From positions 1 through 64,000 of IMG/VR virus record IMGVR_UViG_3300044557_000281: a DNA stretch of 64,000 nt; one strand, 5' to 3'. Positions 1 through 60,325 of the stretch are shown in pieces. Origin of the DNA: a virus (lineage: Duplodnaviria; Caudoviricetes). The translations under genes were made by a program, and so were the position numbers. How positions within the stretch are numbered: the first letter of the stretch is position 1; each line of letters opens with the position of its first letter. The notes under the pieces are model-generated. The model saw only the letters and a list, made by a program, of their open reading frames with translations, did no database searches and had not been told where the DNA came from.

Positions 1-584
1 TTATTCTTGAGCTATGATAATTACTTTCCTAGTTTTGTCATGAATACAATTTCTTACTCTACCATTACTATTTACTCTATATTACTAATTATAATAATAC
101 TAGTATATATTATATATAATAATAATGGTAAGACAGAAAAATCTATTCATGACAAAAGTTGTTAAATCAAGGTTTCTAAAATAAGGATATTCTTAAACCC
201 TTTAGATACAACATTTCTTAACTCAAAAACAAAGAATAACCCATAACTCAAAATAAGGAATAGTCCTTAACTCAAAAAAACAAATAAATATCCCTGCAAA
301 CTTTAACCAAGGACTGTATTAAACCGCAATGCCGTTTATCTTAAATTTAAGATAGGTTTAAGCCGTTTAAAGTACAATCTGGGATAATTACTCGTAAAAT
401 GCTTAGAACGTCTTAGAATGGCTTACAAGAGCAAATAAAGGTATAGTAAAAAAGAGATACCGGATTCAGTATCTCTCAAAAGATATTTAGTTAGATGTCC
501 CCAAAATTGGGGAGGTGTTTGTTAGTTAAGTGCTAAGCCTAGTTTTCGGCTGAACTAGCGAGGTGTGTCCAAAACTGGACTAAC

Positions 585-1112
585 CTAACCAACCTTAGCC
601 CGCATAGCCTTTAGTTTACAGTCAATGATGTAACTAACTCCTTTAGGCGTCATTTGTAATAAGTCAGCAATGGCTTGGTAAGTCCAACCCTCTTTCCACT
701 TTTCAAACCCAAGTTCATTCCTATCCTCCACAGAACACCAGTAGGACGTCACAGGAAGCTCTCTAAGCCGTTTTAACTTGTTTATGGTATGATTACCCCT
801 AAAATCTTTAAACGTCACAGGAAGGCTTAAATCGTACTTAGGATTGACTGACACAATTTTAATGTTTTTAACTTGAGCTACCTTATTCCAGTAATACCTT
901 TTGGAAGATAAGTCAAGGTGATTGTATTGAATACGAGTACCACGGTGAAGGCTTTTCCAATCCTTATGACCGTGACAGCCTTTGTAAATTCCCTTAATTA
1001 TGTTGTATGAGATTATATCAGAGTCCCTAAAGTCATTCATATAGGTCGGGTTGACCGGATAACTCGTAAGTTTAATTCCTAATCTTTGTTCCACTTCTGC
1101 TACTTTTGCCAT
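585..1112 (-). CDS. Hypothetical DNA-binding protein with C-terminal HTH
   Basis: 175-aa ORF; C-terminal GWTYQAIADLLQMTPKGVSYII is HTH-like; repeat-motif copies lie on both sides. Confidence 0.6.
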   Translation of the reverse strand: MAKVAEVEQRLGIKLTSYPVNPTYMNDFRDSDIISYNIIKGIYKGCHGHKDWKSLHRGTRIQYNHLDLSSKRYYWNKVAQVKNIKIVSVNPKYDLSLPVTFKDFRGNHTINKLKRLRELPVTSYWCSVEDRNELGFEKWKEGWTYQAIADLLQMTPKGVSYIIDCKLKAMRAKVG

Positions 1113-1182
1113 GTATATTCTCCTTTAATCAATAATTTATTCACATTATACCACTAATTATTTGGTGGTCAATCACTTTTTC

Positions 1183-1777
1183 TATGTCATAATTTAAAGT
1201 GGTACTACCTAGTAGTCTATTTTCTACTTTTGTCATGAATACATTTTTTGAATTTGCCTGAAATGTCATGAATACAATTTGTTATTTAGTTATTGGATAT
1301 TCAAATTTTGTAATGAATAGATTTTCATATGTTATTACTTTTGTCATGAATAGATTTTCATATGTTCTTATAGATTTGTCATGAATACAGTTTTGTATCT
1401 ATAGTTTTGAACTATAACGAGAATGTCATGAATAGATTTTCATATGTTATCGTGTCATAATTTAAACTATTACTAGGTAGTAGGGTTTTATCCACTTTGT
1501 CATGAATACAATTTGTTATTTTAATTATTGGATATTCAAATTTTGTCATGAATACATTTTTCGCTTTTGCCTGAAATGTCATGAATAGATTTTCATATGT
1601 TTTACTTTTGTCATGAATACAATTTTGAGTTTACTATAGATTTGTCATGAATACAATTTATTGTTTATAGTTTAAAACTATAACCAAAATGTCATGAATA
1701 GATTTTCATATGTTATTTTGTCATGAATGCCATTTTACAATTTGCCGAAAAATGTCATGAATAGATTTTCATATGTT
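1183..1777. repeat. Iteron-like array of ~14 TGTCATGAATA direct repeats
   Basis: Copies at ~1231,1264,1309(variant),1342,1377,1424,1498,1544,1577,1609,1643,1690,1719(variant),1753; outliers at ~37 (direct) and ~141-157 (inverted). Confidence 0.9.
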
Positions 1778-1868
1778 ACCTAAACCAAGACAGAATTATT
1801 ATAAGTATTAGTGTAGCTACACTAATGTAAGAGACAGCTTAAGTCCCCTTATTACGGGGGACTTGTTG

Positions 1869-4800
1869 TTAGTTGTATTGTGTGTATATGTCTGGTAAAG
1901 TAGGTGACATTGTTTCGTTTAACCATAGGTTGTTAAATTCATAACCAGCCCCATAGTTAACATCTACTAATCGTTCGTACCCTAGCATACTATAAACACA
2001 TGCTTGACCATACAACTAGAAGCATAATCTTGTTAAGAAGCTTCTAGCTAGACTATATCATCAATAATCATATTAGTCAATATAATTATTGGTACACGCT
2101 TCCCACCTTAGAGTTTCACTAAAGTAGTACAGATTTCATCAGCATAGCTACTAAGCCTTAGCTAGTATATCTTAGTCGTTAGACCTTCAAAGCATTTTCA
2201 TGCTAAGCTTGGCACAGGATTAGCATGAAAATGCTTTCCCTGTTAGCTTGCTTATTAACCATCATTTCTTATGGCTACTTAACCGTTAAACAAACACCCT
2301 ATAAGTATAGGTTCATGTACTTTATCGACCACTAATTTGTCAATGGTCGTCTCCTCTGCGTTTAATTATTTGATAAAATTCACCAGTTTTTTGGTCTTCT
2401 TCATCACGAATAACAATATTTCCCCAGTGTTCAATAAAGCGTTTTAATTCTTCATCAACTTCCCACCAGAAACCAATTTCTCCACCTTTCATCTTAGCAA
2501 TGTATCGTTTGTTTTGCATAAGTTTATCAGCAGAAACAATACTATTTTGCTCTGACCATGAAGGAATTAAATTACCAGTAGATTTAGGGGTGCTGGGATA
2601 TTTGCAACCGAATACTTTTTGTTTCCCATAATAAGCAATCAGTTGCGCAAGCTTTTCTCCACTATCCCCAATATCAGCCACAATAATATCCGGACTGTAG
2701 GGGGCTAGTTCTGCAATAATACTTTGTAAGTCAACCCCAATTGCTTTAGGGTCTACTATACTTGATTTACCAACAGAAAATAATCGAATCAAGTCTACTT
2801 GTCCATTGGTTCTTACACCGTGAACAGCACACCAATGACGATTTCCCCAATCGATACCCACCGAGATAAATTTATAATCTCCTCGGCTCATACGTTGTGT
2901 TGGTAAATCTTGTTTTCTGTGTTCTAATACGTCCTCTTGGTGAACACTTAATTTCTTATCTTCGTAGGGGTATCCAAGTGTGTAATTCCAAAACGCTTGC
3001 TTGGATAATGACGCTAGTTCTTTGCGTTTTAGGTCGTCAGCGGTACGGGCATACCGTAGTTTTCACTATACTTTAACACTGATTTAACAGTCGGACTAGA
3101 CTATATCATAAACCTACTTTTTGGTGTAGGTTTCCTTGCTTTACTTTCTCTTACGAGATTTTCTTATCTGGTTTTCACTAGTACCATTTTACTAGTTATC
3201 CAGAAATTTAGTCGTTAGGCTTTTATAGTGCATTGCACTGATTTAGCACGGGATTAACTCTGTCCATATAGGATTTAGTCTCTCTTATCAGCTTATTGGT
3301 TATTCAGCTATGCCCGTTTAACAAGGTTTACTCTCTTATCATTGCTAATAAGGTGGGCTATTACTTAACCCACACCGCGTTCATTTGGCTTATCATGTAC
3401 CCTCTTGTACCTTGACCACCTTTAGTACGGTCAGGGAATTTAGGAACCCCATTGTTAACTACCGCTACTTTCGTAGTATTTAATACGGATTGGACTATAT
3501 CATATTCTTATATTTTGGCATAAGAATCTCTACGTTACGCTATTGCTGTTGGCATTTTTTTGTAAAATCTTCGACTACTTCTAACACTTTATTTTACATT
3601 TGTAGTTTGTATGATACTCTGATAGCAGAGTAATTCTACCGCCATTTGCTTTTACAGCTTCTTCTCTGTAGCTTTCTGGTGTTTGTTTTATACCTTTCAT
3701 AATGTGTTCTCCTTAACTGTGCCAACAGTTCTAATAGCTTTCTCTTAGTTCTCACTAACCCCATTTGGTTAGCTACCCAAGAATTTAGTCTCTAGGCTTT
3801 TATAGCGCTTTGCGCTAGTTTAGCACGGTAGGTAAACTCTATCCTTGCATATTAGGACTTAGTCTTTCTTACCAGTATATTCTTTGTATATGCATTATTT
3901 TACTATGCCCGTTTAGTAGAGTTTAAGGTGTACAGGTCTGTTTATACACCGTTGTACCATCTGTCTAGTGGCTCTCCACACTTTTGGCAAACGAATTGGA
4001 AGGAACCATCTACGACAGTCTTAGCGAGTACGTCAACCCCTTTAGGGTTAACACAATAAATATTGCCACGTTTCTCAATTGGTGCTTCTGGATTATAATC
4101 CTCATAACTCATTTCGTTATAGTGATTACATTTAGGGCATTTGTGCATATACACAAATTGGTCGGATTGCTCAAACACACGGTGTATGCCCATGTGAGGG
4201 GTACTTGGTGTCGACCAACGGTTTATAATTTTGAATGGTGAACTTGACATGGATTCGATAGCAGACATTTCAGCAAAAGCTGGAACCCTATCATATTCGT
4301 CCCGAAAATACCGTAGTTTTCACTATACTTTAACACTGATTTAACAGTCGGACTAGACTATATCATAAACCTACTTTTTGGTGTAGGTTTCCTTGCTTTA
4401 CTTTCTCTTACGAGATTTTCTTATCTGGTTTTCACTAGTACCATTTTACTAGTTATCCAGAAATTTAGTCGTTAGGCTTTTACAGTGCGTTGCACTGATT
4501 TAGCACGGGATTAACTCTGTCCATATAGGATTTAGTCTCTCTTATCAGCTTATTGGTTATTCAGCTATGCCCGTTTAACAAGGTTTTCTATAGAAATTAC
4601 TTCCTATAGCCACTATAACTCAAAATGGCTAAATAGTCTATATCAATCTAAGAAACCCTCACTTTCGTGATATTTAATAGGGACTAGACTATATCATACC
4701 CCTCCTATTCGGTGGAGGGGTCTCTCCGTTACTTCCTACAAAACTTTAGTTAATCTTATATTTTTGCTCTTTATTTAAAACAATTCCTTGTACTGCCATT

Positions 4801-13305: not shown

Positions 13306-13367
13306 CCTATACATTCAGGATAAACCCTGTTATAATAAAAACAGTTATTAAGAGAGGAAGATTTTTA

Positions 13368-13595
13368 ATGAAAAAGTTTTACGCTATCTTAGAGGGTAAA
13401 GAATCACATAAAGAAACCTATACTACCCGTAATCGTGTTGGTAAAGAGGTTACTAAGACAAAGAAAGTATCTGTAGGAAAAAGCTATAATGTTCCTTTAG
13501 AAGACGCTACAACACGTAGTGAAGCTGTACAAGACGCTACACGTAAAGCATTAAACATTGGCGCTTCTGTTTCTTTTGTCGGAAGCTACAATTAA
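13368..13595 (+). CDS. Hypothetical protein
   Basis: Strong RBS, 75 aa. Confidence 0.6.
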   Translation: MKKFYAILEGKESHKETYTTRNRVGKEVTKTKKVSVGKSYNVPLEDATTRSEAVQDATRKALNIGASVSFVGSYN

Positions 13596-13734: not shown

Positions 13735-16700
13735 TTGTATTTGACAACAGCAACAACAGCATTAGCTACTAAGGTGGCTAAAAGAGATGGTCGGACTGTT
13801 AAGTTTACAAACAACCGTATCAAAAAATCTATTAGAAAAGCTTGTTTTGATGTTTCTTTAGGGGATAAAGAAACTAAGGAATTAGTAGAACGGGTAACAG
13901 AAACGCTTACCCCTCATATTAGCCAAAGACAAGAAATTTCAGTAGAAACCATTGAAGATTTAGTGGTAGAACAGTTAGAAGTGCTTGGTGCAAAAGATGT
14001 AGCAGAATCTTATCGTGTGTATCGTATGCAACGAACTATTGAAAGAGAACAACAAACAGATGTTACTCATGCAATAGGGAAATTAATTGCTAGGGATAAA
14101 ACGGTAATCAATGAAAATGCCAACAAGGACGCTAACACTATTCCGGCTAACCGTGATTTAACAGCAGGCGTAGTAGCAAAAGCAGAGGGGCTTAAAATGT
14201 TACCAAAACGTGTAGCGAATGCTCATTTAAAAGGGGATATTCACTTCCATGATTTAACCAACAGCCCTTATGATGTTAGTACCAATTGTTGCTTAATTGA
14301 TTTTAAGACCATGTTATCTAACGGGTTTAAGATGGGCAATGCTCAAATTGAATCACCAAAATCTATACAAACTGCCACAACAGTAGCTTCGCAAATTATT
14401 GCCAATGTAGCCAGTCAACAATTTGGTTAGGACACTTGCCGTTTTCATAGGTAACTATGATTATTATTACCGAGGTAACAACAGGAAGGCTGTAAAATGC
14501 TAACCCGAAGGGAAGGTTAAAAATAACATTTTAACCACATGCAACGCATAGATTTTGAAACTGGTTTAACCAGAATATAGTAAATCCAAGAGACCACGGC
14601 ACCCTAGATAATAGGGTGAAAAGATATGCTAAACTGGGTATGAAAGAACATACCAATGAAAATGAAGGAAACTTCCAGAGCTATAGATAATAACCTATAG
14701 GATAATAACAATTTGGGGTGCTCATTTGACCGCATAGACGAGGTGCTAGCCCCGTATGCAGAAATGAACTACAAAAAGCATTTAAGTGAAGCTAAGCAAT
14801 ATGTATTTCCAGAAATGCAAGAACAGTACGCAAAGAACAAAACTAAGAAAGATATTTATGACGCTTTCCAAAGTCTTGAGTGAGCATTCACGCCCAAGTA
14901 AAACTTATCTAAACAGGGAAACTCTTAATAAGACAATCCTGTACAAAGTATATTTTTTAATATATGCGTGCAACGACTATCGAAAACAGAAACTAATATT
15001 ACAGGTATTAGTGGAGAAGTGAGTAGAGTACAATTCAAGTGAATTGGAAAAGGTGAGGTTCTGTAAGTAACGATACAGAATATGATATAGTCTGAACTAT
15101 ATGGTGACATATAGAAGGTACAATCTAACGAATTGTATCGTAACATAATGATGAAGTAAATACTTTGTATACCGCTAACGGTTAAGTTTGGCTGTTATAA
15201 AACTATGTGAACCTATATTTGTAGGGTGTTTACTTAACGGTTAAGGAACTATAGGAAATGATAGTTAGTAAGTAAACTAACAGGGGAAGCTAAGGCAGTA
15301 GCTATGCTAATCCTGTGCTAAGCCTTAATAAAGGAAAGTGCAACGACTATCGAAAGCAGAAATCAATAAGAAAATTATTGGTAGGTAAGTGAGTAGAGTA
15401 CAGATTAAGTGTGAATCTTAACTGGAAGCGCATAGAGAATGAAATGAGTGAATCAAAACTAATTTGAACTTGTTTTGTTTTAAGATATAGTCTGGATTTA
15501 TGGAAACATAAAGAGGTGCTACAAACACCGTTTACCACGATTGCCGGTTTCTTAGGCACTAACTGGTTCGAGAGAGAAATACAAAAAGCAATTCTTAATG
15601 TTAGATTAGTTGGACTTGGAGCTGACAAAAAGACAGCAATATTCCCTAAGATACTGTTCACCCTTAAAAAAGGTGTAAACTTTTCAGCAGAAGACCCTAA
15701 CTATGATATTAAGCAATTAGCAATGAAATGTTCACAAGCAAGAATTTACCCTAAGCAACGTTGGGGCTTTATTAAGTAATTAATAAGTGATAATGTGGTG
15801 AACCTAGTTAAAGGGTGTCCTTAATAAGGGCTAACGGGCATAGCTGAATAACCAATAGGCTGATAAGAGAACCTAAGTCCTACATGGATAGTGGCAATCC
15901 CGTGCCAAGACTACTAATAAACATACATTTAATTTTAAACATAGGGAGTTGATTACACATGGAAAAAGATGAGTTATTACAGCTAGCAATAGACGGGTAC
16001 CTCAAGGAGGTAGAAACTATTACTTACATTGAATGCCCTGTCTGTCATGCAAAACTTACCTATAAATGGAAAAGTTCCCTACGCAATATTAAAAGTATAC
16101 ATGGAGCTAACTGCAGCAAATACTACCAGAACCAAGTAACTAAGGAGTTAGGCGAGCAAGCTTGTAAGAAATTCTCAAGCACATACCGTCATGCAAAAGA
16201 ACGTTGTACAAATAAAAACTCTAAAGATTATTACTGTTATAAAGGGAAGTGGGGATTTACTGATTATGTAGATTATCACTTTTGTTGCTATAGCAGTTTT
16301 AGGGACGCTTGGTTACGGAAAATAGAAAATATTTCTATTGATAGGATAGACGGGAATTTAGGCTATGAAAAGGATAATGTTAGGTTTATATCTATGGGGG
16401 ATAATTTAAGAAACAAGGATAGAATAAAACCAGTTATGGCTTTAAACATAGAAACTAATGAATGTCTTACAGCTAACAGTTTAGCTTCTCTTGTAAATAG
16501 TAATAGTACCACTTTTAAGTCGTTAAGTGCTATGCACCACCATCTTAAGAACGGTGGATTATACAAGAAAAAATGGAAAGTGGTTTATCAGTAGTAAGGT
16601 GTATCGACTAAATTGTGCATATGCACTAAGACCTACGAGATTAACACGTAGGGTAGCGCCACACACCCAAGAAATATTGGGTGATGATATAGTCAGGTTA

Positions 16701-18030
16701 AGTAGAAATGCTTAAAGAATAACGGACGTATTAAATTATGATAAACTTGTGGAAATTACTGGCTCATATAAAGCCAGCATGGGTTGCAGAAGTTTTTTAA
16801 ACAAATGGGTCAATGAACATGGAGAAGAAGTTCATGCTGGTCGTATGAATTTGGGTGTTATTTCATTAAACACACCAAGAATTGGGATTGAATCAGAAGG
16901 AAATGTTGAAACTTTCTGGGAACTTTTCAATGAACGATTAGACATTGTTCATGAGGGGCTACAATTCCGAATTAAACGTTGTAAGGAAGCGCAACCTAAG
17001 AATGCACCAATGCTTTATAAACAAGGTGCATTCGGTCATTACCTTACAGATGAGGATACAGTAGACCAACTGTTCGACAATGAACGAGCTACCGTTTCTA
17101 TCGGCTATATTGGCTTATATGAAACAATGACAGCTTTGTTCGGTAATCCTAATTGGGAAACCAATAAAGATATTTATGCTTTTTCTATCGAAGTAGTGAG
17201 ACGTATTGCTGAAAAAGCTGAAAAATGGTCTAAAGAAGAAGAAATCCATTATTCATTGTATGCCACACCAAGTGAATCAATGACTGACCGGTTCTGTAGA
17301 TTAGATACCGCTAAGTTCGGTATTATCAAAGACATTACAGACAAAGGTTTTTATGTGAACTCATTCCATTTAGACACACGAAAAGATTGGTCTCCAATGG
17401 ATAAGATTGATTTTGAATCACCTTACCCTAAATACTCTAATGGTGGGTTTATTCACTATGTAGAAGCAGTTATTCCTAAGCACAATCTGAAAGCTATGGA
17501 ACAACTTTGGGACTACTCGTACGACAAACTAGGATATTTTGGTGTTAATACGCCAATAGATAAATGTTTGAAATGTGGTTTCGAGGGAGACTTTCACGCT
17601 ACCGAGGACGGCTACGAATGTCCAGAGTGTGGGAATAATGACCCAGAAACCTGTGATGTTGTAAAACGACTTTGTGGGTTAACTTAAAGGCTCACATTAA
17701 ACTGTATAAATTGACGGGGACTACCTTAGAGCTTTTACTACTAACTTACTGTGGTGACACAGGCAAGGGCTAGCATAATTAACTAGGTATAGTAAAAAAG
17801 TAAAAGATTGGTAAATCCGCAACGAAACTTCACTACCGTCACATGTTAGTGAAGGACGCTCAACGACTATAATTACGGATGAGGTTAGTCAAACCTCATA
17901 AGGTATAGTCTACTCCCCTAATAAATATCGGGAAACCGAGGGTACTAAGGATTTAGGACAACCACAATTACGCCCCGAAGTTAAGGGAAGACGTAAAGAA
18001 ATAATGAGTCGGGTTAAACACCAACAATAA
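13735..18030 (+). CDS. nrdD: Anaerobic ribonucleotide reductase, 6 exons: 13735-14427, 14716-14881, 15151-15182, 15522-15752, 16725-17679, 17951-18030
   Basis: Exons sum to 2157 nt (718 aa + stop); ATP cone, HFHD, NCC, QFGGCS, EYEVNT..NGQTPF, YPDV, MGCRS, CxxC..CxxC, RLCGYLG. Confidence 0.9.
14428..14715 (+). ncRNA. Group I intron nrdD-N1 (288 nt)
   Basis: P1 UGGU/GCCG; P10 GGGUG/CACUU; terminal G. Confidence 0.85.
14882..15150 (+). ncRNA. Group I intron nrdD-N2 (269 nt)
   Basis: P1 CUUGAGU/GCCCAAG; P7 GACUA/UAGUC; terminal G. Confidence 0.88.
15183..15521 (+). ncRNA. Group I intron nrdD-N3 (~339 nt; 3' end atypical)
   Basis: P1 UAACGGU/GCUGUUA; P7 core; P10 CAAAC/GUUUG places the 3' junction after A15521. 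Confidence 0.75.
15753..16724 (+). ncRNA. Group I intron nrdD-N4 (carries HNH ORF)
   Basis: P1 CCCU/GGGG; P10 GACGU/ACGUU; terminal G at 16724. Confidence 0.88.
15959..16594 (+). CDS. Intron-encoded HNH homing endonuclease
   Basis: SIDRIDGNLGYEKDNVRFI...N; C-terminal NUMOD-like segment. Confidence 0.8.
   Translation: MEKDELLQLAIDGYLKEVETITYIECPVCHAKLTYKWKSSLRNIKSIHGANCSKYYQNQVTKELGEQACKKFSSTYRHAKERCTNKNSKDYYCYKGKWGFTDYVDYHFCCYSSFRDAWLRKIENISIDRIDGNLGYEKDNVRFISMGDNLRNKDRIKPVMALNIETNECLTANSLASLVNSNSTTFKSLSAMHHHLKNGGLYKKKWKVVYQ
17680..17950 (+). ncRNA. Group I intron nrdD-N5 (271 nt), splits the Tyr codon of RLCGYLG
   Basis: P1 UGUGGGU/GCUCACA; terminal G at 17950. Confidence 0.9.
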
Positions 18031-18108
18031 CACTTTACAATACCCTTGTGATTTGGTATAATGTCTATATCAAGTCACAAGGGTTATTTATTATAAGGAG
18101 GAATTTAC

Positions 18109-21640: not shown

Positions 21641-23220
21641 GATTTTACGCCAGGAAACTCGGTATTTTAATGCCGAGAGGAATGGCGTCCTTTCTATAAT
21701 TTAGTGTAATTTAGTATTGACAAAATGCTCGATTTCTGCTATAATAGAAGTATCTTAAGTAGAAAGGGGCCCTTATGGAATCTGCAATTTCTTTAAAATT
21801 TAGACTATATCCAACACCAGAACAAAGCCGAGCCTTTTCAGACCTTTGTCAACGTTATGCCAACGCCTGTAATTTTGCAAGTCAATATGCCTTTGACAAC
21901 GGAATGATTACTTCAGTCATTGACTTAAACAGAGGCATATACTTAAACCTTCGTCAAAAGTTTAACCTTAAAGCTCAGTTAGCACAGTCTGTTTCACGTA
22001 CAGTTACTGCACGATATAAAACAATACGTAAACAAATGCAAAAGAATCCTTATGTTTGCAAGTACGAAGTGATACCTAAGAATCTTGATAAAACAAAGTC
22101 TAAAAATAAAAAGTTTAAAACAGTATACGTTAGTCGAAATTTAGACTGGTTACAAAAACCTGTACAATTCAATCGTCCACAAGCGGATTTAGTAAGAAAC
22201 CGTGACTATAGTTTTGTAGAAAATTGCACTAAACTGTCAATTAATACATTAAACAAACGTGTAAAAGTAGATTTTAGTATTAAAGGTTTTGAACATTACC
22301 TTGACGATTATAAACTTGGTACAGCTAAGTTGGTTAAGTCTAATGGAAAATGGTTCTTGCATGTAGGCGCAACAAAAACCGTTGAAGACTTACCCGACGT
22401 TAAACACGTTGTGGGTATTGACCGTGGTTTACGCCAATTGATGGTCACCTATGATGAAGATGGACAGACCGCCTTTTATTCTGGACAAACCGCACGTCGT
22501 AAACGTGACCATTATTCAGCCTTAAGGGCTTCTCTGCAAAGACGTAATACCAAATCTTCCAGACGACGCTTGCGTCGTCTCGGTAACAAAGAGAACCGCT
22601 GGATGACAGATTATAATCATCAGTTATCAAAGACACTTTGTTCAAAATATGAAAATGATACGGTATTTGTTCTTGAAGACTTAAGTGGCGTTCAGTTCGC
22701 TGCAGACAACCAGTCGAAGCAACGTAAGTCTGATAATCATACCTGGGCATTCTATCAATTGGGACAGTTTCTTGCTTATAAAGCAATTCAAAATCGTTCT
22801 ATGATATTGAAAGTAGACCCGGCATACACCAGTCAACGTTGTCCTAAATGCGAACGTATTGACAAAGAACAACGCGACCATAAGTTACATGAGTACCGTT
22901 GTGAATGTGGATACGTAAGTAACGATGACCGTTTGGCTGCAATGAACATTCAAATTTTAGGGCAGTACATTCTTGCACATCCAGAATTTAAAACACGGCC
23001 TTCGTATAAAACATTAACAGGCTTGGCATAAATGTCAACCTTATTGCCGGTGCAATCAACCACCGGGTCTAAGCAGCGGCTTAATACGCTATGACTTAGA
23101 TGAGTAGCATCCTCGCATTAAACATTGATTAAGCCAAGGTTTAAGGTGTTAGAAGTGACTTCGTCATGCTTGACTAACATTTGAGTTGCAAACTCGGTAC
23201 TTTAGTGCCGAGTAGTTGAT
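21641..23220 (+). mobile_element. IS200/IS605-family tnpB-only element
   Basis: Subterminal hairpins CTCGGTATTTTAATGCCGAG (left) and CTCGGTACTTTAGTGCCGAG (right); TGAT at the junctions. Confidence 0.8.
21775..23031 (+). CDS. tnpB: RNA-guided nuclease TnpB
   Basis: RLYPTPEQ; RuvC GIDRG, VLEDL, NDDRLAA; CPKC/CECG Zn finger. Confidence 0.9.
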   Translation: MESAISLKFRLYPTPEQSRAFSDLCQRYANACNFASQYAFDNGMITSVIDLNRGIYLNLRQKFNLKAQLAQSVSRTVTARYKTIRKQMQKNPYVCKYEVIPKNLDKTKSKNKKFKTVYVSRNLDWLQKPVQFNRPQADLVRNRDYSFVENCTKLSINTLNKRVKVDFSIKGFEHYLDDYKLGTAKLVKSNGKWFLHVGATKTVEDLPDVKHVVGIDRGLRQLMVTYDEDGQTAFYSGQTARRKRDHYSALRASLQRRNTKSSRRRLRRLGNKENRWMTDYNHQLSKTLCSKYENDTVFVLEDLSGVQFAADNQSKQRKSDNHTWAFYQLGQFLAYKAIQNRSMILKVDPAYTSQRCPKCERIDKEQRDHKLHEYRCECGYVSNDDRLAAMNIQILGQYILAHPEFKTRPSYKTLTGLA

Positions 23221-59107: not shown

Positions 59108-59187
59108 TTACTTTATATGTTTAACTCTAGCGTCAATCTCTTTTTTACGACCATACGCATTAGGTCTAGCTTGTGGTTGTCCTAAAT
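59108..59187 (-). pseudogene. nrdD: Second nrdD terminal exon (80 nt)
   Basis: (Y)LGQPQARPNAYGRKKEIDARVKHIK*; same phase and length as exon 17951-18030. Confidence 0.85.
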
Positions 59188-60325
59188 CCTTTATACCCTC
59201 GGTTTCCCGATATTTATTAGGGGCATAGACTATACAATCACCTAAACGGTGGCTATATTATAGTCGTTGAACGTTATCTATGGTTAACTTTTTATATTTT
59301 TCATATTTACGGTCTAGATACACAGTAGCATTCCTGTACAGTATAGTTAACGCCATTCTAGCGTTGTTACCTCCTAGAGAGATATAGAAAATACCTTTAG
59401 CCCTGTATAACTGACTTTTAGACTTTGGTGCAATTATCGGCTTAACCACTGACAAGAGTTGTTCAGTACCTAGCATAGAAAACCTAACTCCTGATTTGCT
59501 GTTGTATACTGAACCATCTCCATCGAAGTAACCTCTAATAAAGTGGTTAACTAGATTATCGTCTAGTTTAGGAAACTTTAGTGTTTTACTTTTGTTGGGT
59601 GTTAGCCCCTTGTCTAGTAAGTCATTATACATTTTTCTACTAGTAATGTTTAGTACACAATACTTGTAGTCTTCACCGCTGTATGAGCTACTATTGCTAG
59701 TATACACATGAATAGGGATGTTACTGCTTAAACTTGAGTTTAATTTGTGTAAGTGGTCTATATCCTTTACAGATAACTTCACGCCTATAACTTTCCCGTT
59801 AGTAACGTACCCATCAGCCATGAGAAAACCTAACCAGTAAGCTTTATGCTCTGTGTTTATAACCTCAAAGTAGTCGTCATCCCAAGTATAAACCTTACCA
59901 TTAGACTCTACCCCTCTAATAGAAATGTTATTCTCTAGTAGCACTCTCTTTATTACAGATGTGCTTACTGAAAACTTACTGGCTATTGCTTGTTGACTAC
60001 TTCCTGCATTGTAACTTGTTAGTATAATTTCTATATCTTTATCCGTAAATATTTTCTTTTTTACCACATGTGTACCTCCTATAAGTTAGTTATACTTATA
60101 ATATAGCACAATGGAGTTTAACTGAGCCATAAATCTTCGATGCGGATTTCCCATTTATCCACCCTTAGCACCTTTGTGACAAGGCTTTTATTTCAGCTTA
60201 GGTAATCTAACTAATTTTTTCTGCTTTCGCAACGTTCACGCTCACCGTTTCCAGTCACGTTGTAATTTAGTTAGCTTTACGTATTTCCAGCAATTCAGTT
60301 TCTTCATTGGGCAATATGAGTTTTT
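59188..60325 (-). ncRNA. Group I intron lacking its 5' exon (cognate to the nrdD-N5 site)
   Basis: P7 GACUA/UAGUC; P9 shared with N5; terminal G; IGS GCCCA at 60312-60308. Confidence 0.75.
59258..60067 (-). CDS. Intron-encoded two-motif LAGLIDADG endonuclease with N-terminal HTH
   Basis: AYWLGFLMADGYV; HFIRGYFDGDGSV; LDRKYEKY. Confidence 0.85.
   Translation of the reverse strand: MVKKKIFTDKDIEIILTSYNAGSSQQAIASKFSVSTSVIKRVLLENNISIRGVESNGKVYTWDDDYFEVINTEHKAYWLGFLMADGYVTNGKVIGVKLSVKDIDHLHKLNSSLSSNIPIHVYTSNSSSYSGEDYKYCVLNITSRKMYNDLLDKGLTPNKSKTLKFPKLDDNLVNHFIRGYFDGDGSVYNSKSGVRFSMLGTEQLLSVVKPIIAPKSKSQLYRAKGIFYISLGGNNARMALTILYRNATVYLDRKYEKYKKLTIDNVQRL

What the first reader, a model, noticed from the sequence alone, without database searches (positions are those of the whole stretch)
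13735..18030. Anaerobic RNR gene with five group I introns, one inside the glycyl-radical motif
Six exons rejoin to a 718-aa NrdD. Introns sit at conserved motifs (QFG/GC, LE/YE, NG/QT, YP/DV, CG/YLG). With terL this gives 11 introns in two genes within 18 kb, while thyA, dfr and nrdG have none, which is an unusually high and selective intron load.
Basis: partly seen in the sequence, partly recalled or inferred. Interest (0 to 1): 0.7.

Follow-up and report, generated by a model that had tools for sequence, protein, structure and literature searches.

The report
Phage nrdD gene with five introns
The anaerobic ribonucleotide reductase gene of this 90-kb phage is cut into six pieces by five self-splicing group I introns, one placed right after the codon of the radical-bearing glycine; this is an extreme example of a well-known phage phenomenon, and one of the introns has a flawed 3' end.

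Summary
Confirmed. Window 13735-18030 (+) holds one class III ribonucleotide reductase gene (nrdD) in six colinear exons of 693, 166, 32, 231, 955 and 80 nt. They join to a 2,157-nt frame with one stop. The 718-aa product is about 60% identical to intron-free Enterococcus phage NrdDs and keeps the key residues of T4 NrdD.

The five inserts (288, 269, 339, 972, 271 nt) make up half of the gene and are group I introns.
- **Rfam:** four match RF00028, two above the curated threshold.
- **I1:** it escapes Rfam but aligns with AR9/phiR1-37 topoisomerase-gene introns in a covarying P3/P7 pseudoknot fold.
- **5' splice sites:** every 5' exon ends in U, paired with G in a P1 helix.
- **I2:** it sits at exactly the nucleotide of phage T4's nrdD intron and shares sequence with it.
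- **I4:** it carries an HNH endonuclease gene.
- **I5:** it splits the Tyr codon after the radical glycine. The same intron at the same nucleotide is in Enterococcus phage iF6 (unannotated) and in distant metagenomic phage nrdD genes, so it is not unique.

One flaw: I3 ends in A, not the usual G, so its splicing is in doubt. Other genes of this phage also carry introns. This scan earlier noted a Gly|Tyr intron on other DNA.

The parts
13308..13336 (+). promoter-like site upstream of the small ORF 13368-13595 and nrdD
   Evidence: TATACA-17-TATAAT with TG, 10 of 12 matches; a consensus match only
13735..14427 (+). nrdD exon 1 (ATP cone plus start of the NRDD domain; ends ..SQQFG). The start may be TTG 13741 instead of 13735
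   Evidence: Pfam ATP-cone 1.6e-17 and NRDD profile positions 1-104; tblastn to EfV12 NrdD residues 16-234
14428..14715 (+). intron I1, 288 nt, phase 0, between Gly231 and Gly232 (T4 residues 125/126); no ORF
   Evidence: No Rfam hit. Aligns with intron RNAs of AR9/Goe21/phiR1-37 topoisomerase II genes and a Clostridium phage terL. A group I topology with a P3/P7 pseudoknot is 96.8% paired, with 28 pairs showing compensatory change, against 31-48% paired in slid controls. U before the 5' site, G last; IGS CACUU|GCCG gives P1 of 4 bp and P10 of 5 bp
14716..14881 (+). nrdD exon 2 (GCSFDR..QSLE plus the first base of Tyr287)
   Evidence: tblastn 74.5% identity to EfV12 residues 235-288; NRDD profile 105-142
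14882..15150 (+). intron I2, 269 nt, phase 1 in Tyr287 (GAG T|AT GAA); no ORF; same nucleotide position as the T4 nrdD (sunY) intron
   Evidence: RF00028 50.9 bits, at or above gathering. T4 junction derived. 77% over 52 nt and 93% over 27 nt shared with the T4 intron. P1 CUUGAGU/GCCCAAG has 6 of 7 pairs, including a pair changed on both sides relative to T4 (read from the sequences)
15151..15182 (+). nrdD exon 3, 32 nt ((Y)EVNTLYTANG)
   Evidence: tblastn to EfV12 residues 290-299; frame restored only with this piece
15183..15521 (+). intron I3, 339 nt, phase 0, between Gly297 and Gln298 (NG|QTPF); no ORF; the last base is A
   Evidence: RF00028 55.1 bits. IGS GUUUG|GCUGUUA gives P1 of 7 bp and P10 of 5 bp. 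Related introns at the same site in L015 and L032 end in G
15522..15752 (+). nrdD exon 4 (QTPF..RIYP)
   Evidence: tblastn 63.6% identity to EfV12 residues 300-376; NRDD profile 156-239
15753..16724 (+). intron I4, 972 nt, phase 0, between Pro374 and Asp375 (YP|DV); carries an ORF in the P6 loop
   Evidence: RF00028 29.7 bits on the 3' part. Nt 81-156 are 86-87% identical to three places in the terL region, at least two of them inside RF00028 hits. IGS ACGUU|GGGG gives P1 of 4 bp and P10 of 5 bp; ends in G. P6 placement of the ORF is read by eye
15959..16594 (+). intron-encoded ORF, 211 aa, HNH-type homing endonuclease candidate
   Evidence: PHROG HNH endonuclease families at 5.2e-12 and 1e-11; best hit phrog_28742 (unknown function) at 3.1e-30; no Pfam hit
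16725..17679 (+). nrdD exon 5 (DVLNYDK..RLCG plus the first base of Tyr693); holds Cys395, Asn416, the zinc-ribbon cysteines and the radical Gly692
   Evidence: Pfam NRDD 1.9e-88 and Gly_radical 1.3e-22; mapping to T4 C290, N311, C543/546/561/564 and G580
17680..17950 (+). intron I5, 271 nt, phase 1 in Tyr693 (GGG T|AT TTA), one base after the radical-glycine codon; no ORF
   Evidence: RF00028 37.4 bits, E 4.5e-7. P1 UGUGGGU/GCUCACA of 7 bp; ends in G. Homologous introns at the same nucleotide in iF6, L012/L031, L032, L033-L038, with compensatory changes in P1 and P7
17951..18030 (+). nrdD exon 6 ((Y)LGQPQ..VKHQQ, stop 18028-18030)
   Evidence: tblastn to EfV12 residues 700-722, E 6e-6; coordinates
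18042..18084 (+). terminator-like hairpin after nrdD, overlapping a promoter-like site (18034-18062) for the downstream genes
   Evidence: 19-bp stem plus T-rich tail; TTTACA-17-TATAAT, 11 of 12 matches; consensus matches only

Best explanation
This is a single phage nrdD gene (class III, glycyl-radical ribonucleotide reductase) transcribed as a pre-mRNA of about 4.3 kb that holds five group I (IA-like) self-splicing introns.

Mechanism, inferred from the family: in each intron the internal guide sequence near the 5' end pairs with the last bases of the upstream exon (P1, with a U-G wobble at the splice site). A free guanosine bound in P7 attacks there. The freed exon then attacks the bond after the intron's last G, guided by P10, and the exons are ligated. 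Five such events give a 2,157-nt mRNA for a 718-aa NrdD that works with the neighbouring nrdG activase.

The introns are mobile DNA that home into the most conserved, and so most widely shared, stretches of nrdD.
- I2 is the counterpart of the T4 nrdD intron.
- I5 belongs to a lineage that targets the Gly|Tyr position of the radical motif in several phage groups.
- I4 carries its own HNH endonuclease.
- The four ORF-less introns would depend on endonucleases acting in trans or on recombination in mixed infections.
- I3 has lost the canonical terminal G. It probably splices poorly or at a nearby cryptic G.

Shown here: the exon and intron anatomy, the ribozyme cores and the homologies. Inferred: the splicing itself, the homing and the enzyme activity.
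For: - **Colinearity:** six colinear exon matches to an uninterrupted NrdD, and an exactly restored frame with one stop.
- **Protein integrity:** Pfam ATP-cone, NRDD and Gly_radical domains spread in order over the exons. The counterparts of T4 C79, C290, N311, G580 and the four zinc cysteines are all present.
- **Ribozyme cores:** RF00028 hits in I2, I3, I5 and I4. The I1 fold has the group I order of helices and the P3/P7 pseudoknot, 96.8% paired with 28 compensatory pairs.
- **Splice sites:** all five 5' sites follow a U that faces a G, in a P1 of 4-7 bp within the first 20 nt of the intron. A contiguous 5-bp P10 is present in I1, I3 and I4.
- **I2:** same nucleotide as the T4 intron, with shared sequence.
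- **I5:** the same nucleotide position holds homologous introns in iF6 and in 8 further loci from IMG/VR or metagenomes. Their NrdDs are only 31-36% identical in six cases. Guide sequences match their own exons (GGGU/GCUC against GGAU/GUCC) and P7 is compensated (GACUA/UAGUC against GAACA/UGUUC).
- **I3 site:** also occupied in L015 and L032.
- **I4 ORF:** matches HNH endonuclease families.
- **Transcription unit:** no strong + strand terminator inside the gene, and a hairpin right after it.
Against: - No RNA data: splicing is inferred for all five introns.
- I3 ends in A (15521) at the only junction that restores NGQTPF. All 13 homologues compared have nothing between G and Q, and the two related introns end in G.
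- I2's P1 has a C-A mismatch at position -3.
- I1 is not recognised by RF00028. I4 and I5 score below the Rfam gathering threshold.
- The I1 covariation rests on four sequences, two of them close relatives.
Confidence: 0.88

Rival explanations
1. The gene is on its way to being a pseudogene. The introns are real, but at least I3 (terminal A) no longer completes exon ligation, so little or no full-length NrdD is made and the phage relies on host ribonucleotide reductases.
For: I3's last base is A, while related introns at the same site end in G. P7 of I3 is canonical, so a G is expected (alignment). The nearest in-frame G (15518) would insert a Leu into the invariant NGQTPF. Other genes of this genome are reported broken by mobile elements (unverified notes).
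Against: All six exons keep an open frame and every catalytic residue. A strong 5-bp P10 still marks the correct 3' site. A single base difference could also be an assembly or population variant.
Confidence: 0.2
2. The C-terminal piece (exon 6) is not spliced on. It acts as a detached glycyl-radical peptide, as in the two-gene NrdD arrangements noted elsewhere in this scan.
For: Earlier notes of this scan describe bacteria with a separate small gene for the radical-bearing tail (not checked here).
Against: - Exon 6 has 26 codons, starts in the middle of a Tyr codon and has no start codon.
- The radical Gly692 itself lies in exon 5, so the cut falls inside the motif.
- The spacer is a group I ribozyme with P1 pairing to exon 5.
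- The same spacer family varies from 271 to 1,056 nt at the identical nucleotide in other nrdD genes.
Confidence: 0.02
3. Some inserts are not introns but inteins, translational bypass elements or plain insertions that leave separate gene fragments.
For: Phage RNR genes are known to carry inteins and endonuclease-split genes as well (PMC3653736). I1 has no Rfam match.
Against: All five inserts have stop codons in the exon frame soon after the junction, so none can be an intein. Exon 3 is only 32 nt and cannot be a gene fragment. I1 has a covarying group I fold and relatives inside CDSs that the depositors annotated as joined.
Confidence: 0.02

Closest known systems
Phage T4 nrdD (sunY) group I intron with the I-TevII endonuclease gene
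   Same: Same gene and the same nucleotide position as I2 (GAG T|AT GAA, inside the Tyr codon of ..E|YEVNTL..). The 5' domain and core share sequence, and P1 is formed by the equivalent guide segment.
   Different: T4 has this one intron only, and it is 1,033 nt with a GIY-YIG endonuclease ORF. I2 is 269 nt without an ORF. Its 3' two-thirds are 97% identical to an intron in another gene of this same genome.
Enterococcus phage iF6 (MT909815) nrdD, and IMG/VR or metagenome relatives (L012/L031, L032, L033-L038)
   Same: Homologous intron at the identical position, one base after the radical-glycine codon. The last 52 nt are 98% identical in L012.
   Different: In iF6 the intron is 1,056 nt and encodes a LAGLIDADG endonuclease. 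The record annotates a truncated nrdD plus a 'DNA endonuclease' and no intron. iF6 has one nrdD intron and L032 has two; this phage has five.
Multi-intron phage genes: Twort nrdE (2 introns), Brochothrix A9 nrdE (3 introns plus an intein), Jug phage nrdD (4 fragments), Bastillevirinae genes
   Same: Several group I introns stacked in one conserved nucleotide-metabolism or packaging gene, next to functionally important residues (PMC3653736; PMC12880540; PMC11878797).
   Different: Five introns in one nrdD is more than in any case I found in those papers. Introns make up 2,139 of the gene's 4,296 nt.
Introns of the topoisomerase II/gyrA genes of Bacillus phages AR9, PBS1 and Goe21 and Yersinia phage phiR1-37
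   Same: I1 aligns with them over most of its length (68-70% identity). It shares the conserved J6/7-P7 and J8/7-P7' blocks and the helices, which covary.
   Different: Different host gene. The relatives carry an endonuclease ORF upstream of the ribozyme; I1 has none.

Membership tests
Group I self-splicing intron (Rfam RF00028) | Conserved catalytic core (P3-P8, J6/7, J8/7, P7 guanosine site), scored by the covariance model | tested here: met
   I3 55.1 bits and I2 50.9 bits reach the gathering score of 50. I5 37.4 bits (E 4.5e-7) and I4 29.7 bits (E 9e-5) fall below gathering but are significant in the local search. I1 has no hit, but its J6/7-P7 and J8/7-P7' blocks match the canonical ones with two P7 pairs swapped in a compensatory way. 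Its helices follow the group I order with a P3/P7 pseudoknot.
Group I self-splicing intron (Rfam RF00028) | 5' splice site after a U that forms a U-G wobble in P1 with an internal guide sequence | tested here: met
   All five: the 5' exon ends in U facing a G of a guide segment within the first 20 intron bases. P1 is 4 bp (I1), 6 of 7 (I2), 7 bp (I3), 4 bp (I4) and 7 bp (I5) (I2 by comparison with T4).
Group I self-splicing intron (Rfam RF00028) | Intron ends in G (omega G) | tested here: inconclusive
   Met for I1, I2, I4 and I5. Not met for I3, whose colinear junction ends in A15521. G15518 is the nearest in-frame alternative.
Group I self-splicing intron (Rfam RF00028) | Guanosine-dependent self-splicing of the transcript | not testable with these tools
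   Needs RNA work.
Class III ribonucleotide reductase NrdD | NRDD barrel domain, C-terminal glycyl-radical motif RxCGY, thiyl cysteine on the finger loop, zinc ribbon | tested here: met
   Pfam NRDD, Gly_radical and ATP-cone domains lie in order across the exons. T4 C79, C290, N311, C543/546/561/564 and G580 map to C185, C395, N416, C655/658/673/676 and G692. The T4 residue roles are from my own knowledge of the T4 NrdD structure literature. An nrdG activase gene lies 380 nt downstream.
HNH homing endonuclease (I4 ORF) | Sequence membership in HNH endonuclease families | tested here: inconclusive
   PHROG HNH families at 5e-12 and 1e-11, but the best PHROG has no function and no Pfam HNH model matches. 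Catalytic residues not examined; cleavage not testable here.

The most novel reading that the evidence does not exclude
I3 is a naturally working group I intron whose last base is A rather than the otherwise universal G. Its 3' splice site would be chosen by the unusually strong 5-bp P10 helix, so the phage still makes wild-type NGQTPF NrdD. Alternatively, its inefficiency throttles NrdD output as a form of regulation.
Probability: 0.1. Interest if true: 0.75.

Novelty: new member of a known kind. Interest (0 to 1): 0.5.

Why it matters
- **Intron density:** it is one of the densest stacks of group I introns in a single bacterial-virus gene, with five in 2.2 kb of coding sequence, and the same genome has a heavily interrupted terL.
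- **Insertion-site map:** together with the relatives fetched here it gives at least seven intron sites in phage nrdD. These are the C79 site, YGG, the T4 site, NG|QTPF, YP|D, the C290 site and the G580 site. Several fall on or next to catalytic residues, which fits the idea that homing elements settle where the DNA cannot change.
- **Annotation:** the Gly|Tyr intron lineage crosses phage groups whose NrdDs are only about 32% identical, and it is missed in a GenBank record (iF6). nrdD genes that look truncated at the radical motif should be re-examined.
- **Intron evolution:** near-identical ribozyme cores shared between introns in different genes of this genome offer material for studying how introns are retargeted.

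Tried and rejected
- **Near relatives of the phage:** megablast of the region and of 25 kb of flank against 50,697 phage records found none, only short intron or methylase matches.
- **Related loci from one protein:** The search for related loci with the single exon-5 protein found nothing in IMG/VR. The alignment query worked.
- **The look-up of encoding contigs:** The split-looking NrdD fragments P0003, P0016, P0112 and P0012 could not be placed on their contigs.
- **I3 3' junction pattern:** no match in IMG/VR, so no near-identical copy was available to check the A at 15521.
- **Glycyl-site junction pattern:** no match in the GTDB species genomes. I therefore have no evidence for this exact intron in cultured bacterial chromosomes. 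The metagenome hits sit in phage-like gene neighbourhoods.
- **Literature:** searches for an intron in the glycyl-radical motif found nothing specific.
- **Alternative I3 splice-site pairs:** other pairs with U at -1 and G last either shift the frame or add Leu, Val-Leu or Leu-Leu (read from the sequence).
- **Pfam on the I4 ORF:** nothing found.
- **Intein and detached-peptide readings:** rejected (see rival explanations).
Full report
**What is there**

The window is the first 64 kb of a single 90,155-bp contig. It has no near relative among 50,697 phage records. Its NrdD is closest, at about 60% identity, to those of Enterococcus Schiekvirus phages.

I used the uninterrupted 723-aa NrdD of Enterococcus phage EfV12-phi1 (L001) as a probe. 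tblastn finds six colinear pieces on the + strand between 13.7 and 18.0 kb. Exact coordinates were fixed by script:

| Exon | Coordinates | Length (nt) |
|---|---|---|
| E1 | 13735-14427 | 693 |
| E2 | 14716-14881 | 166 |
| E3 | 15151-15182 | 32 |
| E4 | 15522-15752 | 231 |
| E5 | 16725-17679 | 955 |
| E6 | 17951-18030 | 80 |

Joined, they give 2,157 nt with a single terminal stop, 718 aa. Pfam places the ATP cone and NRDD profile positions 1-104, 105-142, 156-239 and 259-541, plus the Gly_radical domain, in order on the exons. In an alignment with T4 NrdD the residues C79, C290, N311, the four zinc cysteines and G580 all have counterparts: C185, C395, N416, C655/658/673/676 and G692. The roles of these T4 residues are from my own knowledge of the T4 structure literature. 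One small doubt concerns the start codon, TTG 13735 or TTG 13741.

**The inserts are group I introns**

| Intron | Coordinates | Length (nt) | Phase and site | RF00028 |
|---|---|---|---|---|
| I1 | 14428-14715 | 288 | phase 0, QFG\|GC | no hit |
| I2 | 14882-15150 | 269 | phase 1, in Tyr287 | 50.9 bits |
| I3 | 15183-15521 | 339 | phase 0, NG\|QT | 55.1 bits |
| I4 | 15753-16724 | 972 | phase 0, YP\|DV | 29.7 bits (E 9e-5) |
| I5 | 17680-17950 | 271 | phase 1, in Tyr693 | 37.4 bits (E 4.5e-7) |

Together they are 2,139 nt, half of the gene. The RF00028 gathering score is 50; the E-values are from the local search.

I1 is invisible to RF00028. By blastn it resembles RNA inside split genes of other phages: topoisomerase II/gyrA of AR9, PBS1, Goe21 and phiR1-37, and terL of a Clostridium phage. 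AR9's CDS is annotated as joined. An alignment of I1 with three of these introns supports a fold in the group I order, with a P3/P7 pseudoknot:
- helix order: P2, P3, the P4-P6 domain, P7, an extra hairpin, P3', P8, P7', then three P9 hairpins;
- 96.8% of cells paired, against 31-48% when partners are slid;
- 28 pairs with changes on both sides; 0 of 500 shuffles reach this.

The conserved I1 blocks correspond to the canonical J6/7-P7 and J8/7-P7' blocks of I2-I5, with two P7 pairs exchanged in a compensatory way. The alignment has only four sequences, two of them close.

**Splice sites**

Every 5' exon ends in U. In each intron a guide segment within the first 20 bases pairs with the exon end, with the U facing a G. 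P1 is 4, 6 of 7, 7, 4 and 7 bp for I1 to I5. I1, I3 and I4 also have a contiguous 5-bp P10 with the first bases of the next exon (the I2 guide was found by comparison with T4). I1, I2, I4 and I5 end in G.

I4 holds a 211-aa ORF (15959-16594). It matches PHROG HNH endonuclease families at 5e-12 and 1e-11 but no Pfam model. By eye the ORF lies in the P6 loop, and its stop codon falls in the 3' strand of P6, just before P7.

**The flaw in I3**

The only junction that restores the motif NGQTPF puts A15521 at the intron's last position. It is also the junction marked by the 5-bp P10. All 13 homologues compared have nothing between G and Q. Related introns at the same site in two other contigs (L015, L032) end in G directly before the same exon bases. 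P7 of I3 is canonical.

The nearest G that keeps the frame (15518) would add a leucine inside the invariant motif. I cannot tell which of these holds:
- a natural terminal A;
- a cryptic 3' site;
- a crippled intron, and so a crippled nrdD;
- a base error in the assembly.

No near-identical copy was found to check it.

**Comparison of insertion sites**

I derived the T4 nrdD junction from the T4 record. It is GAG T|AT GAA, the same nucleotide as I2. I2 also shares 77% over 52 nt and 93% over 27 nt with the T4 intron. So I2 is the counterpart of the classical sunY intron, without its endonuclease gene.

I5 cuts one base after the codon of the radical glycine (G692, T4 G580). The same position holds a homologous intron in other records:
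- **1,056-nt version:** Enterococcus phage iF6, an IMG/VR contig (L012/L031) and a metagenome contig (L032). In iF6 the record shows a truncated nrdD and a 'DNA endonuclease', here a LAGLIDADG protein.
- **275-nt and 765-nt versions:** six metagenome loci whose NrdDs are only 31-36% identical to this one. At least one (L033) lies in a phage-like nucleotide-metabolism neighbourhood.
- **Compensatory changes:** across these versions the guide sequence tracks its own exon and P7 shows a double compensatory change.

The glycyl-site intron is thus a recurrent lineage, not a peculiarity of this phage. I found no paper that describes it. An unchecked note of this scan reports a Gly|Tyr intron in another genome.

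The I3 site is also occupied in L015 and L032. I saw no other nrdD with an insert at the I1 or I4 sites. Relatives have further inserts at the C79 site (L009, L010) and at the C290 site (L028, with a 35.7-bit RF00028 hit).

Local conservation around the five sites (±5 residues) ranks at the 35th, 96th, 86th, 60th and 90th percentile of the protein. The residues directly at each junction (YGG, LEYE, NGQTPF, MYPD, CGYLG) are invariant or nearly so.

**Context**

dfr, thyA and nrdG are intact. A promoter-like site lies at 13308-13336 and a terminator-like hairpin right after the stop codon.

The intron load is not confined to nrdD and terL:
- RF00028 also hits 2034-2299, 3079-3377 and 4336-4636 on the minus strand, the terL region.
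- It hits two places beyond the window, at about 66.8 and 80.6 kb. The first lies in a RecA-like gene that also seems to hold an intein.
- I2 nt 87-266 are 97% identical to that RecA-gene intron, while the 5' thirds are unrelated.
- Parts of I3, I4 and I5 recur in the terL introns. Ribozyme modules are therefore shared between introns of this genome.
- A second copy of the 3' end of the glycyl-site intron, fused to a complete foreign exon 6 (closer to the Enterococcus phage version), lies at 59117-59235 on the minus strand. This fits exon co-conversion during intron movement.

**Verdict**

In kind this is well known: group I introns in phage ribonucleotide reductase genes, from T4 to Twort, Brochothrix A9 and the Jug phages. 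In degree it is extreme. Several points are new as far as I could search: four of the five sites, the wide spread of the Gly|Tyr lineage, the core sharing, and the terminal A of I3. Splicing itself is inferred, not shown.

Noticed in passing
window 59117-59235 (- strand): A second copy of the 3' end of the glycyl-site intron (92% identical to I5's last 48 nt), joined to a complete NrdD exon-6 reading (..LGQPQARPNAYGRKKEIDARVKHIK, then stop). This reading is closer to the Enterococcus phage NrdD tail than to this phage's own. It looks like an intron that moved together with its flanking exon.
   Followed up: partly
L002 2146-4913 (- strand) = genome 66146-68913: A RecA-like ATPase gene that appears to hold both an intein-like insert (in the 607-aa ORF) and a group I intron (RF00028 67.9 bits). 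The intron's 3' two-thirds are 97% identical to I2 of nrdD, while the 5' third is unrelated.
   Followed up: partly
window 14417-14426 and 14706-14716: A 10-nt direct repeat (AACAATTTGG) at the end of exon 1 and across the I1/exon-2 boundary. It is too long for chance in 300 nt and I have no explanation for it.
   Followed up: no
window 21775-23031 (+): A 418-aa ORF with OrfB_IS605 and Cas12f1-like TNB domains (a TnpB-type protein), about 3 kb downstream of nrdG.
   Followed up: no
L030 (Enterococcus phage iF6, MT909815) 402-3630: The GenBank annotation ends nrdD at the radical glycine and calls the intron ORF a 'DNA endonuclease'. The 26-codon last exon is unannotated. The gene is in fact interrupted by a 1,056-nt intron that encodes a LAGLIDADG protein.
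   Followed up: yes
L009/L010 (~aa 185), L028 (aa 394/395), L036 (~aa 172): Other phage nrdD genes from IMG/VR or metagenomes carry 0.7-0.9 kb inserts at or next to the codons of the two active-site cysteines (T4 C79 and C290). L028's insert has a group I hit of 35.7 bits.
   Followed up: partly
window 18034-18097: A long hairpin after nrdD gives a weak chance match to the mir-308 model (23 bits). It is more likely a terminator, and it overlaps a near-consensus promoter for the downstream genes.
   Followed up: partly
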